Source: Candidatus Hydrogenedentota bacterium (GTDB taxonomy: Bacteria; Hydrogenedentota; Hydrogenedentia; Hydrogenedentales; SLHB01). Taken from it: 64,000 nt of DNA. A program made the position numbers and the translations under genes. Position 1 is the first letter of the stretch. Every line of letters starts with the position of its first letter. The notes under the pieces are model-generated. The model ran no database searches. It had not been told where the DNA came from and saw only the letters and a list, made by a program, of their open reading frames with translations. Below are positions 35,097 to 41,272 of this stretch, in pieces. Location of the stretch: contig BTVY01000006.1 in NCBI GenBank assembly GCA_045863335.1, positions 64,001 to 128,000 on the forward strand, given 5' to 3'.

Positions 35097-37406
35097 ATGA
35101 CGGTTTTCAAGGCTTGGGCATCGTGGGCGCTCGGGATCTGTGTCGCCCTCGCGTGGGGGGTAAGCATCGCCCATGCACAAACTTATCCACCGCTGACGGT
35201 CGAGATCGGTCCCTACCATCCCCTGTTTCTTTTCCAGGCGCCGGATAGCGCCTCTGGCGACACGGAGGCCTATGCCCAGCAGATCGCAAGCGCGTGGGCC
35301 ACGTTGCCCAATGACCTGCGGCCGTATTCGGTTATGGCAGTGAACGTTTCCGGTCCGGATGCGGAAACCCGCCACCTTCGGTACACGAATCTCCTCAAGT
35401 CCCTTCAATCCTCCGAGATACCGGTCGCGATCCAGGTCGCCGATGAAAATCCTCGCAATATCTACCCCCTGGCGCAGGCCGAAGAATTGATTGCCCAGTT
35501 TACTGCGATCAAAGGAATTCAGGTTTCCAATCTCGCCTTTGACGATTACTCCACATTCGGCGGCGGTGACGACGTCGGTCTGCCCGCCAATGTCCGCTGG
35601 CTCAGCAGTGCGACCGATCTCGCCGCGCGCTACGGCCGCTTTATCGCCATCCGGCTGGACGGCACCGGCTGGCTGCACGTGTTGGCGAACGCGCAGTGCC
35701 GCCCCCTGCTGAACACCTTCCGCAATTGCAGCGCCTATGTCGTGCCGCTCGCCGGGCACGGCGCGGGCGCGACTATCGCGCAGCAAGGCGCGCTCATGGG
35801 ACTGTGGCTGGAAGGCGCGGTGGCGCAGTGGGGCGTTGCCCCGGACTCGGCTTGGTATGCGAATGCCGGATTGCTTGAGCCGGGCGTTTTCGGCGCCGCC
35901 TCGGACGGTCAGGGGATGCCTCCCTTATTGTATCGGGCCATGGTGCTGAACGGCACGATGGGCGGCGCCTGCGTGTACGCATTTCCCGAGGCCCGCGATC
36001 TTTGGGCCGGCGAACGCGTTCGGTATTGGGCCGAAGCCATCAAACCGATCCTATCACAGGTCATCCAGGGCGGCCTCATCGCCGACAAAGAATTCGTCGC
36101 GAAAAAAGCACGGGTCGCATACCAGATGGGCGTGTCGCGCACCCCTCAAGAATTCCAGCTCAACCTGCGCGACCTGGATGGCGTTCGCGACGAAGGCTTG
36201 ATGATCAAAGGCGCCTACGGCATGGAACGGCCGGGACAAATCGAGGAGCTGATCCCAAACTCGGGCCGCCACTACTGGGTGCCGATTATGTCGCCCTACG
36301 CGCCGCCCGAAGTGATGGGCGCCTTGGACCGCGTCGTCAAACCGGCCAGCATGCCTTCCGCGCAGAGTTGGACGGAACTGCTGGATCAGCATCTCGGCCC
36401 GGATGGTTCAGGTTCCGCCTTCATCGTGCGTGTGGGCCGGGGCGTCTTCGTCATGCATACGCGTGAAAGCCGCTACGAGGAACAGACGTTTCTTATCCCA
36501 TCGTTGCCCGCGCCCGTACGCGGTGTTCTCGCAAAGCGTAATGAATCGACCGTCACGCTCGAATGGCCTTTTCGCGAAGGCGACGTGTCCTACACGGTTT
36601 TCAAACGCATGTATCCGACGGGAGAGTTTGCTGAGGTCGCGAAAAACATCGACGAACGAAGCTGGACCGATCCCATCGCTGACCCCGCGCAGTCCGTTGC
36701 CTATGCGGTAACGGCGTTGACCAATGAGAAAGAGCCCTACGAAGGTACGGTCAACTTCGGCGACTACCTCGCGTTCAGCTTCGTCGAAAGCCGTATCGAC
36801 GAGGAAATTGTGCTGACCGACCTCGTCGCCCAGTCGCAGAGCCGCCCCCTGGAAGGCCCCCTCGAAATTCTGCCCAAGACGCAGGACTGGTGGCCCTCCT
36901 ACGATGGCGTGCCCGACGAACAGCGCGCCACCGCCGAGGCCATCGTGGCCCGCATCGAGCAATGGAACGAGGCCTTCGCGGCGGAAAACCTGGACGGCGT
37001 GATGGACCTCTACGGCACCGAATACCGCGATCCCCAATGGTGGCAGTTCCAATACGTCAAACGGGCTTACCAATGGTTCTTCGAACGTTACGGCGCCTGC
37101 AAAATGACCCGGCAACTTCGCCAATGGGATTTCACTGAGTTCGAGGCTAAAGGCGAGGTGCGCGCGCTCCTCTACTGCCGCTTCTCCGGATCCGCCATCA
37201 GCGATCCCACCGGCCGCTTCGCCGGCCAGACCGCCTGGTTCCCCCGAACCGAAACCGGGGAAATCTGGCTCACCTTCGCCAATCGCGAAGGCGAATGGCG
37301 CATCGAACGCAGCGATCCTGCCCTCCCCAACTTCGCCGACATCCTCAGCTTCTCCGCCGGCCCCTACGACTCGTTCCCCCCCGGCCCCGATATCTTCGGC
37401 CGGTAA
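35097..37406 (+). CDS. Secreted GH98-like module + FN3-like + C-terminal SnoaL/NTF2-like domain
   Basis: Signal peptide; WATLPNDLRPY, LAARYGRFI, GLWLEG..QWGVAPD.AWY, GGACVYAF resemble GH98 (from memory); FN3-like VTLEW...YAVTA; NTF2-like WNEAFAAENLDGVMDLY...WRI. Confidence 0.6.
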   Translation: MTVFKAWASWALGICVALAWGVSIAHAQTYPPLTVEIGPYHPLFLFQAPDSASGDTEAYAQQIASAWATLPNDLRPYSVMAVNVSGPDAETRHLRYTNLLKSLQSSEIPVAIQVADENPRNIYPLAQAEELIAQFTAIKGIQVSNLAFDDYSTFGGGDDVGLPANVRWLSSATDLAARYGRFIAIRLDGTGWLHVLANAQCRPLLNTFRNCSAYVVPLAGHGAGATIAQQGALMGLWLEGAVAQWGVAPDSAWYANAGLLEPGVFGAASDGQGMPPLLYRAMVLNGTMGGACVYAFPEARDLWAGERVRYWAEAIKPILSQVIQGGLIADKEFVAKKARVAYQMGVSRTPQEFQLNLRDLDGVRDEGLMIKGAYGMERPGQIEELIPNSGRHYWVPIMSPYAPPEVMGALDRVVKPASMPSAQSWTELLDQHLGPDGSGSAFIVRVGRGVFVMHTRESRYEEQTFLIPSLPAPVRGVLAKRNESTVTLEWPFREGDVSYTVFKRMYPTGEFAEVAKNIDERSWTDPIADPAQSVAYAVTALTNEKEPYEGTVNFGDYLAFSFVESRIDEEIVLTDLVAQSQSRPLEGPLEILPKTQDWWPSYDGVPDEQRATAEAIVARIEQWNEAFAAENLDGVMDLYGTEYRDPQWWQFQYVKRAYQWFFERYGACKMTRQLRQWDFTEFEAKGEVRALLYCRFSGSAISDPTGRFAGQTAWFPRTETGEIWLTFANREGEWRIERSDPALPNFADILSFSAGPYDSFPPGPDIFGR

Positions 37407-37410
37407 GAGT

Positions 37411-37433
37411 TGCAGGCTGGAAGCCTGCACCAC
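37411..37433 (-). repeat. GTGG-type REP
   Basis: Minus strand reads GTGG followed by TGCAGGC-ttcca-GCCTGCA. Confidence 0.7.
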
Positions 37434-37499
37434 AATGCTTCGCCTGTCCAGATTTTGAGGTAGGCGCGCGGCTCTTGAGCGGATCGGCTCTATACCGCC

Positions 37500-37539
37500 G
37501 GAAATGGAGGGAGCGGCGGGCCTTGGGAACCCGCCGCTC
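37500..37539 (-). terminator. Probable terminator hairpin of the ncRNA
   Basis: 10-bp GC stem gagcggcggg / cccgccgctc (37511-37539); only a weak U-tract follows. Confidence 0.55.
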
Positions 37540-37548
37540 AGTGCGGGG

Positions 37549-37743
37549 AGTGCCTGAAACCGTGTTCCGTGTATCTTGGCGCAAGAGGGTCACGGTCTTG
37601 AGCTACTACTCTGAAACCATTGGGCTGCGGTCGTTGGCCTCAGTCCGCTCAGTACGTCGTGTGGACCCTATATGGTCTGGGCTGCGGAATGACTTCACGG
37701 TGCGATGAAGTCTGACCGGATCCACACATTAGTTCCAGACACT
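37549..37743 (-). ncRNA. Candidate novel structured ncRNA (four-way junction, duplicated CCGCAGCCCA loops)
   Basis: Own promoter; the predicted +1 coincides with the first base of a 13-bp stem pairing the 5' and 3' ends; three internal arms; multiple G-U pairs that work only on the minus strand; downstream hairpin; no credible CDS. Confidence 0.75.
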
Positions 37744-37749
37744 GAGGCG

Positions 37750-37778
37750 AGTTTACCACAACATATAGGGGCTGTCAA
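37750..37778 (-). promoter_or_regulatory. sigma70-type promoter of the ncRNA
   Basis: TTGACA (37778-37773), 17-bp spacer, TAAACT (37755-37750). Confidence 0.85.
37756..37771. promoter_or_regulatory. NrdR-box-like operator 1 (fills the promoter spacer)
   Basis: ccaCaAcATaTaGggg versus consensus acaCwAtATaTwGtgt; all core positions match. Confidence 0.7.
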
Positions 37779-37851
37779 TACCCCTCGTCGGTTTTCTCAA
37801 AGAATTTTTCTCGCGAGAATGAGCCGTAAAATGTGCTCCGAAGCGCTATTG

Positions 37852-37867
37852 ACACTACAAGTTGGAT
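37852..37867. promoter_or_regulatory. NrdR-box-like operator 2
   Basis: acaCtAcAagTtGgat; one core mismatch. Confidence 0.5.
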
Positions 37868-37918
37868 ATTTTGACTGACGCTTCGCCCTTGTAGGTCATT
37901 ACCCCGGATTCGCCACCC

Positions 37919-37934
37919 AGCCTATATATAGTGG
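37919..37934. promoter_or_regulatory. NrdR-box-like operator 3
   Basis: agcCtAtATaTaGtgg; perfect core match. Confidence 0.7.
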
Positions 37935-38115
37935 TCTGTAGTGCGCTGAACTGGGAGCTTCGTTCCTCGTTGTACGCCCGTTTATCTGCGGAATGCTTAC
38001 CTTTCGGCGATTTTACGGGCAGTGGAAGTTTGGCACGCCACAACCTGTTACCTCTACGGCGCGTGATATTCTGGATTCAATGGAACGCAGGGAAAATTGT
38101 AACGGGAGGTGAGTT

Positions 38116-38445
38116 ATGGCATTGCACCACGCTGCGGAGGGTGAGGTTGTGGACCTCGCCACGTGGGATGAGGATACGGCCTCTGGAGGCACGAAGGCCA
38201 TTGTGAAAACGGACAATCTGGAACTGATTCGATTGACGCTGTCGCCGCAACGGGAAATGGACACCCACCAAGTCGCGGGGCCTTCCGTCATCCATTGCCT
38301 GGATGGCCGCATCGTGGTGGACGCCATGGGCAAATCCGAGGAACTGGGGCCGGGCCAACTCATGCATCTGGCGCCGAACGAGCCACACGCCGTCCGCGCC
38401 CGGGAGGAGTCCCACGCGCTGCTGACGGTAATGTTCATCCGGTAG
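38116..38445 (+). CDS. Cupin domain protein
   Basis: GGAGGT RBS; HQVAGP...HCLDG...PNEPHAV. Confidence 0.85.
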   Translation: MALHHAAEGEVVDLATWDEDTASGGTKAIVKTDNLELIRLTLSPQREMDTHQVAGPSVIHCLDGRIVVDAMGKSEELGPGQLMHLAPNEPHAVRAREESHALLTVMFIR

Positions 38446-38452
38446 CCGCGCC

Positions 38453-38481
38453 TTGCCCGCCAAGCCGATCTCTGGTACCAT
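38453..38481 (+). promoter_or_regulatory. Putative sigma70 promoter
   Basis: TTGCCC, 17 bp, TG-g-TACCAT. Confidence 0.5.
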
Positions 38482-38533
38482 TTGGCAGGACGTTAGATTT
38501 GCCGCAAGATACTGCGGTTTGGAGTGTTGCAGA

Positions 38534-38755
38534 ATGCCTCTCTTTGTATTTGCGTGTCAGGAATGCCACGCCGAAAACGAAATCCTGGTCCGGGGTGAGA
38601 CCGCCCCGGAATGCCCGTCCTGCGGGTCCAGAAAACTGACGAAACAAGCCAGCGCCTTCGCAGCGTTATCCGGGGGCGCTCGCCAGGCCGAGATGCCCGC
38701 AAGCTGCGGAGCAGGAAACTGCTGCCGCATGCCGGGCGGCTGCGGACTGAATTAG
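38534..38755 (+). CDS. FmdB-family zinc-ribbon protein
   Basis: MPLFVFACQEC...CPSCGS...SAF, Cys-rich tail; GGAG RBS. Confidence 0.85.
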   Translation: MPLFVFACQECHAENEILVRGETAPECPSCGSRKLTKQASAFAALSGGARQAEMPASCGAGNCCRMPGGCGLN

Positions 38756-40399: not shown

Positions 40400-41188
40400 T
40401 CAAACGAATGATGGACCGAATGACTCCACGAGCGCGTCCAGGAAAACCTGGTCTAACGCGCGGGTATCGCGAGATCTGGCGCGGTCGGGTTTGGACGCGG
40501 ATAGCCGCTCAATTTCGGTTTGCAGAAAATCGGAAATGACGTCAATGCGAGGGCCGCGATCCAGCTCGTTTCCCAATCGCTTTCGTTTCAGGAGATCGTC
40601 AATTGCGGTGCGGACGGAAGAGTTGTCGACAACCCGATCGACAAGCGCCGCGAACTCCATCGGCACGACGCCGTAGCCGCGTTCGATCCAGGTGCACGCA
40701 AGTACCGGGCGCAGCACGTAGAAGTATTTTTTGACCCAGACTTCCTCGCCCTGCAGGTGCTCGCGAAGATTCCCGCGGGCCATGTGGAGATAATGGTGCA
40801 TGCACGATATTGGGGAGTAGTAATCGTCCAAGAGCTGCCGAATTCGCGAGATCGTCTTTCCGTTCTCGCAGTAGACAATGGGCGACTGGATCCATTCCAG
40901 CAAAGGGGGATTCGATTTCCGGAAAAGCTGCAAGGCCTTGGGTAGATCCCATCCGGATACATCCAGCCCTTCATTAATAGGCCTTTCGATTACGTCTCGT
41001 CCGCGTTGAATCGACAGGTACCACTGCGGTGGACGGACATAGAGGAACCGAACGTCGTAATCACTATCCGCCGACGCGAATCCCCAGGCGCGGCTCCCTG
41101 ACTCGCACGCGTAAATGACACGAACATTCTCGTCGCGTTCGATTTGCTCGAGGGTCAGTTGTATCTGTTCTGCAACGCCGTCCTGCAT
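40400..41188 (-). CDS. Pol-beta superfamily nucleotidyltransferase (YcgL/RlaP-like)
   Basis: ESGSRAWGFASADSDYDVRF, WDLPKAL, SNPPLLEW, KKYFYVLRP. Confidence 0.9.
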   Translation of the reverse strand: MQDGVAEQIQLTLEQIERDENVRVIYACESGSRAWGFASADSDYDVRFLYVRPPQWYLSIQRGRDVIERPINEGLDVSGWDLPKALQLFRKSNPPLLEWIQSPIVYCENGKTISRIRQLLDDYYSPISCMHHYLHMARGNLREHLQGEEVWVKKYFYVLRPVLACTWIERGYGVVPMEFAALVDRVVDNSSVRTAIDDLLKRKRLGNELDRGPRIDVISDFLQTEIERLSASKPDRARSRDTRALDQVFLDALVESFGPSFV

Positions 41189-41272
41189 GTCTATATACTG
41201 CCTGCACTTGGGCACCGAATTCATGTGCAGGTCTTTTAAAGCTTCCGTTACGCCCAGAGAATCGAAAGTTCT

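What the first reader, a model, noticed from the sequence alone, without database searches (positions are those of the whole stretch)
37500..37778. Unannotated structured ncRNA with its own promoter and two identical single-stranded loop motifs
Seen in sequence (minus strand): TTGACA-17-TAAACT places +1 at about 37743, the first base of a 13-bp stem joining the two ends (AGUGUCUGGAACU / GGUUUCAGGCACU, 37743-37731 with 37561-37549). It encloses three arms: P2 GUGUGGAUCC/GGGUCCACAC with an inner GACUUCA/UGAAGUC hairpin; P3 UGAGC/GCUCA plus CUGAGGCCA/UGGUUUCAG; P4 CCGUG/CACGG plus UCUUG/CAAGA. At least six pairs are G-U, which would be A-C mismatches on the other strand, so the structure appears selected at the RNA level on the strand the promoter predicts. 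The 10-mer CCGCAGCCCA occurs twice (37687-37678 and 37630-37621), unpaired both times. A GC hairpin follows. I do not recognise it as RNase P, tmRNA, SRP or a riboswitch. Inference: a trans-acting RNA of about 195-245 nt presenting a bivalent site, either a protein sponge/scaffold or an sRNA with a duplicated seed.
Basis: partly seen in the sequence, partly recalled or inferred. Interest (0 to 1): 0.88.

Follow-up and report, generated by a model that had tools for sequence, protein, structure and literature searches.

The report
Conserved small RNA behind NrdR-like box
This is a real, uncatalogued structured small RNA gene of about 240 nt, kept as a single copy in most genomes of one order of the uncultured phylum Hydrogenedentota, and its promoter holds the same operator-like palindrome found in front of DNA-precursor and cell-division genes, so it probably ties DNA-building-block supply to control of other genes.

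Summary
A covariance model finds it, nearly always once, in 115 of 135 genomes of the phylum, all in one order. On 53 distinct homologues, 49 of 70 pairs show compensatory changes. P1, P2, P3 and the 3' hairpin are supported. The outer stem of P4 never varies and its inner stem is not supported. There is no Rfam 15 match, and the genome's 6S, SRP, tmRNA and RNase P genes lie elsewhere. No downstream gene is conserved, so this is a stand-alone gene. New here: the promoter spacer (37771-37756) is a 16-bp palindrome that matches all six conserved positions of the NrdR box. It sits at this place in 71 of 73 loci. A matrix built from these boxes finds the same motif upstream of nrdR (21 of 30 loci), thyX (26 of 28), mraZ (24 of 29) and the genome's own ribonucleotide reductase. 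Best reading: a trans-acting regulatory RNA of a dNTP and cell-division regulon that acts through conserved unpaired C-rich motifs. Its targets, its partner and NrdR binding are untested. The canonical two-box spacing is missing at the promoter.

The parts
37773..37778 (-). -35 hexamer TTGACA
   Evidence: Promoter scan. Sequence conservation among homologues begins at this hexamer.
37756..37771 (-). 16-bp palindromic box CCCCTATATGTTGTGG in the promoter spacer, NrdR-box-like
   Evidence: Matches 6 of 6 conserved NrdR-box positions, C4 A6 A8 T9 T11 G13 (positions from passages of PMC13584703). It scores 25.7 bits under a matrix built from other genomes' copies, the second-best site in the whole genome. 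A box with at least 5 of 6 matches lies at this offset in 71 of 73 loci.
37750..37755 (-). -10 hexamer TAAACT, preceded by TG (extended -10)
37852..37867 (-). Distal box-like site, 5 of 6 core positions, 96 bp upstream of the promoter box
   Evidence: A box at -121..-125 is present in 31 of 73 loci, against 1-7 loci in the other 5-nt bins.
37919..37934 (.). Further box-like site, 13.8 bits
   Evidence: Genome-wide matrix scan. Not checked in relatives.
37500..37744 (-). The RNA gene: predicted +1 at about 37743, 3' end in the U-run at about 37503-37500
   Evidence: Covariance model match at G000:C6:101502-101744, 235.9 bits. Homologue conservation ends after CCTCCATTT. Contigs from RNA libraries cover the body.
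37731..37743 (-). P1, 5' strand (AGUGUCUGGAACU)
   Evidence: MFE. Helix 1: 13 pairs, 9 with changes on both sides, 98.0% paired.
37549..37561 (-). P1, 3' strand (GGUUUCAGGCACU)
   Evidence: As above.
37659..37727 (-). P2 arm: 10-bp stem, 4-bp stem, 8-bp inner hairpin. Absent from the short (about 180 nt) form of the family.
   Evidence: Helices 2-4 have 10, 2 and 7 pairs with changes on both sides. Short forms are seen.
37678..37687 (-). Loop motif copy 1, CCGCAGCCCA, unpaired
   Evidence: Conservation.
37599..37651 (-). P3 arm: 5-bp plus 9-bp stems with a 15-nt loop
   Evidence: Helices 5 and 6: 4 of 4 and 9 of 9 pairs with changes on both sides.
37621..37630 (-). Loop motif copy 2, CCGCAGCCCA, unpaired
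   Evidence: Invariant or nearly so in the 39 long-form sequences.
37567..37595 (-). P4 block CCGUGACCCUCUUGCGCCAAGAUACACGG. This is the most sequence-conserved stretch, but its pairing is unproven.
   Evidence: Invariant columns. The outer stem never varies and the inner stem is unsupported. The block is replaced in some divergent families.
37540..37548 (-). Unpaired linker CCCCGCACU
   Evidence: Unpaired in the MFE. CCCGCA is present in 64 of 74 aligned rows.
37511..37539 (-). 3' GC-rich hairpin with a CCCAA loop
   Evidence: Helix 11: 7 of 12 pairs with changes on both sides.
37500..37510 (-). Tail CCUCCAUUUCC (pyrimidine-rich, then a U-run)
   Evidence: CCTCC lies in the last 16 nt of 43 of 74 rows. 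The terminator scan did not call it.

Best explanation
Shown: a stand-alone gene on the minus strand (about 37743 to 37500) encodes a structured RNA of about 240 nt. The RNA is a four-way junction (P1 closing P2, P3 and P4), followed by a single-stranded linker, a GC-rich 3' hairpin and a pyrimidine/U tail. It is a single-copy gene found in most genomes of one order of Candidatus Hydrogenedentota and belongs to no Rfam 15 family.

Shown: its sigma-70-type promoter has a 16-bp palindrome exactly filling the spacer. The same motif lies upstream of nrdR, thyX, mraZ and the genome's ribonucleotide reductase gene.

Inferred: the palindrome is the operator of NrdR, the dATP/ATP-sensing repressor. 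On that reading the RNA is made when NrdR leaves the DNA, that is, when dNTP supply is low or demand is high.

Inferred: the RNA then acts in trans as the post-transcriptional arm of this DNA-precursor and cell-division regulon. It would act through its conserved unpaired C-rich elements: two or three hairpin loops with (C)AGCCC(A), the CCCCGCA linker and the CCUCC tail. The most likely mode is pairing with G-rich or Shine-Dalgarno-like stretches of mRNAs without Hfq. Binding a protein that reads the loop motif is the alternative.
For: The gene and its structure:
- MFE z is -4.72 on the minus strand and -0.98 on the plus strand.
- On 53 distinct homologues, 93.9% of cells pair and 49 of 70 pairs have changes on both sides. 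0 of 500 shuffles reach this, and slid controls give 36-45%.

Distribution:
- 30 of 41 relatives match by DNA search.
- 115 of 135 genomes of the phylum match the model: 76 of 86 high-quality genomes, all hits in one order, nearly always one copy.
- There is one copy in the window's own genome.

Not a known RNA:
- 0 Rfam matches in the window, and only chance-level matches at relaxed thresholds in the window and in 14 diverse homologues.
- 6S, SRP, tmRNA and RNase P lie on other contigs.

Stand-alone:
- No conserved same-strand downstream ORF.
- The convergent 844-aa ORF is the real gene, judged by codon-position GC.

Operator:
- 50 of 53 loci match 6 of 6 NrdR core positions at -27. With 20 divergent loci added, 71 of 73 match at least 5 of 6. 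The core positions come from PMC13584703 passages.
- In the own genome the matrix gives 15 places at 19 bits or more, against 3.3 strand-sites expected.
- These include tandem boxes 31 bp apart before the reductase gene and a box inside the nrdR promoter.
- Across the order, sites of 12 bits or more lie upstream of nrdR in 21 of 30 loci (control 1 of 30), of mraZ in 24 of 29 (control 0 of 29) and of thyX in 26 of 28 (control 0 of 28).
- nrdR is present in 60 of 61 genomes searched.
- The contigs carrying 6S, SRP, tmRNA and RNase P have no top-scoring box near those genes (one search list, set against the places).

Motifs:
- AGCCC occurs at least twice in 59 of 73 homologues (0.45 expected). 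96 of 145 copies are unpaired, 73 of them in hairpin loops, in each RNA's own fold.

Weak support for expression:
- Contigs from four RNA libraries hold the RNA body: X17 has a 228-nt contig at 37544-37769 with word depth 60.2, X19 covers 37546-37719, X16 covers 37529-37795 and X2 covers 37500-37785.
- Contigs cannot show strand or ends.
Against: - No target emerged. Duplex energies of four conserved segments against 8015 putative translation-start windows are no better than shuffled segments.
- Co-regulated genes rank 246th or lower.
- Complements of the loop motif occur at chance frequency in the genome.
- No Hfq was found in a genome that is 99.4% complete.
- The promoter box has no partner at the canonical 31-32 bp distance on either side. 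Partners lie only at about -123, -92 or -81, and only in part of the loci.
- Passages of PMC12051234 state that the NrdRs studied need two boxes and do not bind a single one.
- The own genome's nrdD has no site of 11 bits or more within the region scanned.
- RNA-library contigs run 26 to 52 nt upstream of the predicted +1. Either the start is not settled or DNA or read-through is present.
- The 3' hairpin is followed by CCUCC before the U-run and was not called a terminator.
- All homologue alignments used for pair counts were fitted to the model's structure.
Confidence: 0.5

Rival explanations
1. The RNA is a protein-binding RNA, a sponge or scaffold. Its two or three hairpin loops displaying CAGCCC(A)/CCCAA titrate or assemble an RNA-binding protein, as CsrB or 6S do for their partners.
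For: - The motif is repeated, sits in hairpin loops and is the feature kept across the whole order even where the stems differ.
- No pairing target was found.
- No Hfq was found.
- The RNA is near-universal and single-copy, like a housekeeping partner RNA.
Against: - No candidate protein is known, and no conserved neighbouring protein gene exists. The upstream neighbours differ between clades: GT9/cupin in one, alanine dehydrogenase/PNT in the other.
- Two or three sites is few for a sponge.
- The loops carry no GGA, so the CsrA found in the genome is not the obvious partner.
Confidence: 0.25
2. The palindrome is the site of a regulator other than NrdR, which happens to share the NrdR-box core. 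The RNA then belongs to a cell-cycle or envelope regulon not governed by dATP/ATP.
For: - The regulon is far wider than classical NrdR regulons. It includes mraZ, ftsK, a murC-like gene, an amidase, hflX and flagellar genes.
- The promoter box is solitary at canonical spacing, and the NrdRs studied need two boxes.
- nrdD lacks a site.
Against: - All six conserved NrdR-box positions are met.
- The motif lies before nrdR itself in 21 of 30 loci, before thyX in 26 of 28, and as a canonical 31-bp tandem before the reductase gene.
- Tandem offsets of 31-32 and 41-42 bp, the two spacings reported for NrdR, are the enriched short offsets.
- nrdR is present in 60 of 61 genomes.
Confidence: 0.3
3. The RNA is a cis-acting leader: a riboswitch-like or attenuator element whose 3' hairpin controls read-through into a downstream gene.
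For: - There is a promoter, then a structured domain, then a hairpin with a U-run.
- In one clade a permease gene follows on the same strand 59-427 nt downstream.
Against: - No downstream gene is conserved across the 53 loci.
- In the window the next gene is convergent.
- Conservation stops at the U-run.
Confidence: 0.03
4. The RNA is the RNA subunit of an unknown housekeeping ribonucleoprotein or a catalytic RNA, rather than a regulator.
For: - It is a near-universal single-copy gene with a strong promoter and a complex four-way junction.
- P4, the linker and the loops are extremely conserved in sequence.
Against: - P2 is dispensable (short forms) and P4 is replaced in some families, which is unusual for a catalytic core.
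- Its regulation by a repressor-type operator argues for conditional expression.
Confidence: 0.12

Closest known systems
6C sRNA of Actinobacteria (Rfam 6C; PMC6486639, title and start of abstract seen in the listing)
   Same: It is a lineage-wide conserved sRNA in GC-rich bacteria. It presents C-rich hairpin loops and, by that paper's title, binds several mRNAs through those loops without an RNA chaperone. That matches the layout here and the absence of Hfq. A link of 6C to replication and division is my recollection, not a tool result.
   Different: - No Rfam match to 6C or any other family.
- This RNA is two to three times longer and is a four-way junction.
- Its loop motif is CAGCCC(A), not a run of C.
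- It is found in a different phylum.
- Pairing has not been shown here.
Regulon-embedded sRNAs made under a repressor, such as RyhB under Fur (recalled textbook case)
   Same: An operator of a metabolite-sensing repressor overlaps the sRNA promoter. The sRNA is therefore made when the repressor leaves, and it extends the regulon after transcription.
   Different: The regulator would be NrdR. My two literature searches listed no sRNA under NrdR control. Targets are unknown, and no Hfq was found.
NrdR operators of nrd promoters (PMC13584703, PMC12051234; passages read)
   Same: It is a 16-bp partial palindrome with C4, A6, A8, T9, T11 and G13. It overlaps the promoter. Tandem offsets of 31-32 or 41-42 bp are seen at the reductase gene, thyX, mraZ and the distal sites of this locus.
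   Different: The box in the RNA promoter has no partner at those distances. The gene controlled is a non-coding RNA, and the motif also fronts division and flagellar genes.
Protein-titrating RNAs (CsrB/RsmZ, 6S)
   Same: Repeated loop motifs on a stable scaffold, and wide conservation.
   Different: - There are no GGA loops.
- The fold is not the 6S rod with a central bubble.
- The genome's 6S is elsewhere.
- There are only two or three sites.

Membership tests
Any Rfam 15 family (4227 models) | Covariance-model score at or above the family's gathering score | tested here: not met
   0 matches in the 64-kb window. In E-value mode on 37200-38000 the best hits are 21 bits or less, against cut-offs of 44-93, and fall on the 3' hairpin. 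14 diverse homologues give one chance-level hit.
6S RNA (RF00013) | Match to the model, and a rod-like fold with a central bubble | tested here: not met
   The genome's 6S is at C46:60020-60205, 57 bits. The fold here is a four-way junction.
SRP RNA, tmRNA, RNase P RNA | Match to the family model, and being the only copy in the genome | tested here: not met
   All three are found on other contigs above their cut-offs. ARAGORN finds nothing in the window.
Bacterial Y RNA (YrlA type) with Ro/Rsr | A Ro (TROVE) protein encoded in the genome, usually nearby | tested here: not met
   No TROVE match in the own genome, which is 99.4% complete. No Rfam match. An RlaP gene 2.7 kb away is not a conserved neighbour in the +/-3 kb compared.
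CsrB/RsmZ-type CsrA sponge | Many GGA motifs in hairpin loops | tested here: not met
   The conserved loops read CCGCAGCCCA. CsrA is present in the genome, but the loops lack GGA.
NrdR regulon member | A 16-bp box with conserved C4, A6, A8, T9, T11, G13 in the promoter region | tested here: met
   6 of 6 positions in the window and in 50 of 53 loci. Positions come from PMC13584703 passages.
NrdR regulon member | Two boxes separated by 15-16 bp (or 25-26 bp) | tested here: not met
   No partner at +/-31-32 bp from the promoter box: mean core match is 2.0 against a background of 1.53 +/- 0.49. Distal boxes lie at -121..-125 in 31 of 73 loci and at -90..-97 or -80..-83 in 13 and 10 loci. Together these form 31-32 or 41-42 bp pairs upstream of the promoter. 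In the window itself the distal box matches only 5 of 6. The spacing rule is from PMC12051234 passages.
NrdR regulon member | NrdR encoded in the genome, and the same motif before nrd genes | tested here: met
   nrdR at C10:131938-132378, 200.9 bits, and in 60 of 61 genomes of the order. Boxes lie before the reductase gene and nrdR and before nrdR in 21 of 30 loci.
NrdR regulon member | dATP/ATP-dependent binding of NrdR to the site | not testable with these tools
   Needs purified protein and DNA.
Intrinsic (Rho-independent) terminator | A GC-rich hairpin directly followed by a U-run | tested here: inconclusive
   A 12-bp covarying hairpin is present, but CCUCC separates it from the U-run, and the consensus scan did not list it. 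Homologue conservation ends at the U-run.
Base-pairing trans-acting sRNA | Conserved single-stranded seed with complementary, conserved mRNA sites | tested here: inconclusive
   Conserved unpaired segments exist. Single-genome target scans give nothing above shuffled controls. A multi-genome target comparison was not possible with the genomes on hand.

The most novel reading that the evidence does not exclude
This is the first riboregulator under NrdR control. In this uncultured lineage the dATP/ATP sensor NrdR governs a widened regulon (thyX, ribonucleotide reductase, nrdR, the mraZ-led division cluster, ftsK, flagellar genes). Its most conserved and best-matching target is not a protein gene but this RNA, which would couple dNTP supply to division or motility after transcription, using a repeated CAGCCC loop motif of a kind not described before.
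Probability: 0.35. Interest if true: 0.8.

Novelty: new member of a known kind. Interest (0 to 1): 0.62.

Why it matters
Hydrogenedentota have no cultured model, and the searches made here turned up no described regulatory RNA for them. This gene gives the order a fifth near-universal structured RNA beside 6S, SRP, tmRNA and RNase P.

It has solid comparative support and a ready covariance model, so it can be annotated at once in sludge, wastewater and groundwater metagenomes.

The promoter palindrome gives a testable handle on function. If NrdR binds it, NrdR would be shown to control a non-coding RNA, and division genes as well. That would widen the role of a repressor so far treated as specific to ribonucleotide reductases. 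It would also raise the question of how a solitary box at a promoter is read.

Tried and rejected
Ruled out:
- Known housekeeping RNAs.
- A Y RNA with Ro: no TROVE protein.
- A CsrA sponge: no GGA loops.
- A cis leader: no conserved downstream gene. The 341-aa minus-strand ORF just downstream is the shadow of the convergent 844-aa gene, whose codon-position GC is 0.63/0.47/0.73.
- A small ORF inside the RNA: the only ATG-led frame lies in P2, which the short forms lack.
- The box as a generic promoter feature: most other top sites are not flanked by -35 and -10 hexamers, and none lies near the housekeeping RNA genes.

Target searches that led nowhere:
- Duplex folding of four conserved segments against 8015 crude start-site windows.
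- Ranks of the regulon genes in that list.
- Genome-wide counts of loop complements: 9- to 12-mers occur at chance level.
- The gene starts were my own crude calls (an SD-like motif plus an ORF of 100 aa or more), so a true target could be missed.

Intramolecular pairing of the P4 loop with the loop motifs: only 4 bp are possible and there is no covariation. Dropped by inspection.

Read laying:
- In X17 and X19 the flanks of the RNA have no contig, but absence of cover is not evidence.
- X17 and X19, from two studies, both stop at 37544/37546 without loose ends. No DNA run was laid beside them, so this is at most a hint.
- The runs I did not lay say nothing about habitat.

RNAalifold on the plain MAFFT alignment recovered only P1, the inner P2 hairpin and the 3' hairpin. 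The arms needed the structure-aware alignment.

Tools and papers:
- Supplementary files of papers were not consulted.
- Papers: for PMC13584703, PMC12051234 and PMC3848588 I read only the passages returned by find. For PMC6486639 and PMC4898720 I saw only the listing, that is the title and start of the abstract.
- The statement that no sRNA under NrdR is in print rests only.
- The statement that no Hydrogenedentota RNA motif is in print rests only.
Full report
WHAT IS THERE

The minus strand of 37778-37500 reads as follows: TTGACA, a 17-nt spacer, TAAACT, then an RNA whose first 13 nt pair with 37561-37549. The promoter scan finds this as the only sigma-70-like site in 37000-38600. It matches 10 of 12 positions with a TG before the -10, where 0.6 sites are expected.

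The energy is -94.7 kcal/mol and z is -4.72, with 0 of 200 shuffles as stable. The opposite strand gives z -0.98. Nine of the 71 pairs are G-U, seven of them in the core. CCGCAGCCCA occurs twice in the whole window, both times unpaired.

No tRNA or tmRNA is called in the window. No Rfam 15 family matches at gathering score. At relaxed thresholds only weak hits on the terminal hairpin appear.

IS IT REAL

A DNA search finds one copy in the own genome and matches in 30 of 41 relatives. An 18-base pattern from P4 hits 59 public contigs. Those that also match a profile of the RNA are nearly all titled Candidatus Hydrogenedentota or Hydrogenedentales. Hits in Devosia, Streptomyces and others do not match the profile and are chance.

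After removing duplicates there are 54 distinct sequences, one of them cut by a contig end. They fall into a long form of about 240 nt and a short form of about 180 nt that lacks P2.

I aligned 39 long forms, gave the alignment the MFE structure and built a covariance model. Realigning 53 sequences and counting pairs gives:
- 93.9% of cells paired, against 83.0% for shuffles and 36-45% for slid partners.
- 49 of 70 pairs with changes on both sides, reached by 0 of 500 shuffles.
- By helix: P1 has 9 of 13 pairs with double changes, the three P2 helices 10, 2 and 7, the two P3 helices 4 and 9, and the 3' hairpin 7 of 12.
- The outer P4 stem never varies. The inner P4 pairs show no compensation and are broken in 9 to 11 sequences.

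The alignment is fitted to the model, which favours the structure. The plain MAFFT and RNAalifold run still recovered P1, the inner P2 hairpin and the 3' hairpin with compensatory changes.

DISTRIBUTION

The model finds the RNA in 115 of 135 genomes of the phylum, and in 76 of 86 that are at least 90% complete and at most 5% contaminated. All hits lie in the window's order. The two genomes from other orders have none. Nearly every genome has one full-length match.

The own genome has 6S, SRP RNA, tmRNA and RNase P RNA elsewhere. This is therefore an additional near-universal RNA of the order.

Divergent families keep the following:
- the promoter;
- P1 (YGGUGUUUGRRAC);
- two hairpins whose loops carry CAGCCC(A/U);
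- a linker ACAC-N-CCCCGCA;
- the hairpin GGGCGGYGGG...CCCAAG...CCCRCCGCCC;
- a CCUCC-U tail.

P2 is absent from them and P4 is replaced in some.

AGCCC occurs at least twice in 59 of 73 homologues, where 0.45 is expected. In independent folds of each RNA, 96 of 145 copies are unpaired, 73 of them in hairpin loops. Fourteen diverse homologues again give no Rfam match.

CONTEXT

Comparing ORFs within 3 kb of the RNA in 53 loci shows no conserved same-strand downstream gene. The upstream, divergent neighbour is a cupin and a family-9 glycosyltransferase in the long-form clade, and an alanine dehydrogenase/PNT gene in the short-form clade.

In the window the next gene downstream is convergent: the 844-aa ORF ending at 37406. 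Its codon-position GC marks it as real, and the overlapping minus-strand ORF is its shadow. The RNA is therefore a stand-alone gene and not a leader.

Contigs from four RNA libraries hold the RNA body, among them a 228-nt contig at word depth 60 in a metatranscriptome. Contigs show neither strand nor ends. Three of them run 26 to 52 nt upstream of the predicted +1, which I cannot explain with these data.

THE PROMOTER PALINDROME

Homology between distant loci begins exactly at the -35 hexamer, and the spacer itself is conserved. It is a 16-bp partial palindrome: CCCCTATATGTTGTGG here, and CCACAATATATTGTGG in a relative.

Passages of PMC13584703 give the conserved positions of the NrdR box as C4, A6, A8, T9, T11 and G13. 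The spacer matches all six in 50 of 53 loci. With 20 divergent loci added, 71 of 73 have at least 5 of 6 at the same offset.

The own genome encodes NrdR, a ribonucleotide reductase with an ATP cone and NrdD. Two boxes 31 bp apart lie before the reductase gene, and a box lies between a TTGACA and the start of nrdR.

A matrix built only from the RNA-promoter boxes of other genomes finds 15 places of at least 19 bits in the own genome, against 3.3 strand-sites expected. It finds 5 places of at least 23 bits, against 0.24 expected. The RNA promoter is second-best.

The other places lie before these genes:
- thyX;
- mraZ;
- ftsK (four boxes);
- a murC-like ligase gene;
- an amidase gene;
- hflX;
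- a flagellar rod gene and the fliR region;
- two sugar-modifying enzyme genes.

Across the order, sites of at least 12 bits lie as follows:
- upstream of nrdR in 21 of 30 loci, control regions 1 of 30;
- upstream of mraZ in 24 of 29 loci, control 0 of 29;
- upstream of thyX in 26 of 28 loci, control 0 of 28.

The short offsets between neighbouring boxes cluster at 31-32 and 41-42 bp. These are the two spacings reported for NrdR sites (passages of PMC12051234). Only 6 of 41 genomes hold a class I/II reductase, while nrdR is present in 60 of 61.

WHAT SPEAKS AGAINST A SIMPLE NrdR READING

The box in the RNA promoter has no partner 31-32 bp to either side. Further boxes lie at -121..-125 in 31 of 73 loci, and at -90..-97 or -80..-83 in 13 and 10 loci. 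They are about nine helical turns from the promoter box. In the window that distal site matches only 5 of 6.

The same paper states that the NrdRs studied need two boxes. The regulon is also much wider than usual, and nrdD has no site. I therefore give NrdR about 0.7 as the factor, and keep another regulator as a rival.

MECHANISM

Shown: a regulated, stand-alone, structured RNA with conserved unpaired C-rich elements.

Inferred: it is made when the repressor leaves the operator, and it acts in trans.

I could not find targets:
- Duplex scans against 8015 crude start windows are no better than shuffled seeds.
- Regulon genes do not rank high.
- Loop complements occur at chance level.

No Hfq and no Ro protein were found. 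CsrA is present, but the loops lack its GGA motif. Pairing through C-rich loops without a chaperone, as the title of PMC6486639 states for the 6C sRNA, is the closest working model. A loop-reading protein partner is the main rival.

NOVELTY

The RNA is not in Rfam 15. Two searches on NrdR (passages of PMC3848588 concern nrd operons only) and two on Hydrogenedentota RNAs listed nothing like it.

It is a new family of a known kind, a regulon-embedded bacterial small RNA. The bolder reading is that it is the first RNA arm of the NrdR regulon.

Noticed in passing
Own genome: C33:25892-26021, C33:35401-35457, C26:57396, C3:54399-54487, C10:91579, C53:27756, C24:84132, C9:56233: The same 16-bp palindrome lies upstream of ftsK (four boxes), mraZ (two boxes, 41 bp apart), thyX, a murC-like gene, an amidase_3 gene, hflX, a flagellar rod gene (the genome's top-scoring site) and the fliR region. 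The last has the same TTGACA-box-TAnnnT layout as the RNA promoter. This suggests a widened NrdR-type regulon covering DNA precursors, division and motility.
   Followed up: partly
Own genome, C23:92868-92883 (locus L096): A 24.7-bit box sits in a promoter-like context (TTGCTC-box-TACATT). No Pfam-matching ORF starts within 600 nt and there is no Rfam match. This may be a second box-controlled transcript.
   Followed up: no
window 40400-41224 (-): An RlaP gene (RNA repair pathway, DNA polymerase beta family; E 4e-96) lies 2.7 kb upstream of the RNA. The genome has no Ro/TROVE gene. In the +/-3 kb compared across loci it is not a conserved neighbour of the RNA.
   Followed up: partly
Genomes of the order: Only 6 of 41 genomes searched hold a class I/II ribonucleotide reductase domain (PF02867), while nrdR is in 60 of 61. 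The own genome's nrdD (C6:151486-152958) has no box of 11 bits or more upstream.
   Followed up: no
Loci L054, L063, L068, L086-L088, L047, L034-L035: Several public MAG titles (Nitrospiraceae, FCB group) carry RNA loci identical to those of genomes placed in the window's own genus or order, so those organism labels look unreliable. The Burkholderiales, Devosia and Streptomyces hits are chance matches of the 18-mer.
   Followed up: partly
window 37744-37795: Contigs from RNA libraries extend 26 to 52 nt upstream of the predicted transcription start, into the promoter. One of them (X16) then diverges into unrelated sequence, which points to a strain with a different upstream region.
   Followed up: no
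window 38116-38445 (+): A small cupin-domain gene lies between the RNA and the glycosyltransferase-9 gene. A homologous ORF is the immediate divergent neighbour of the RNA in 10 loci, so the distal boxes may serve it as well.
   Followed up: no
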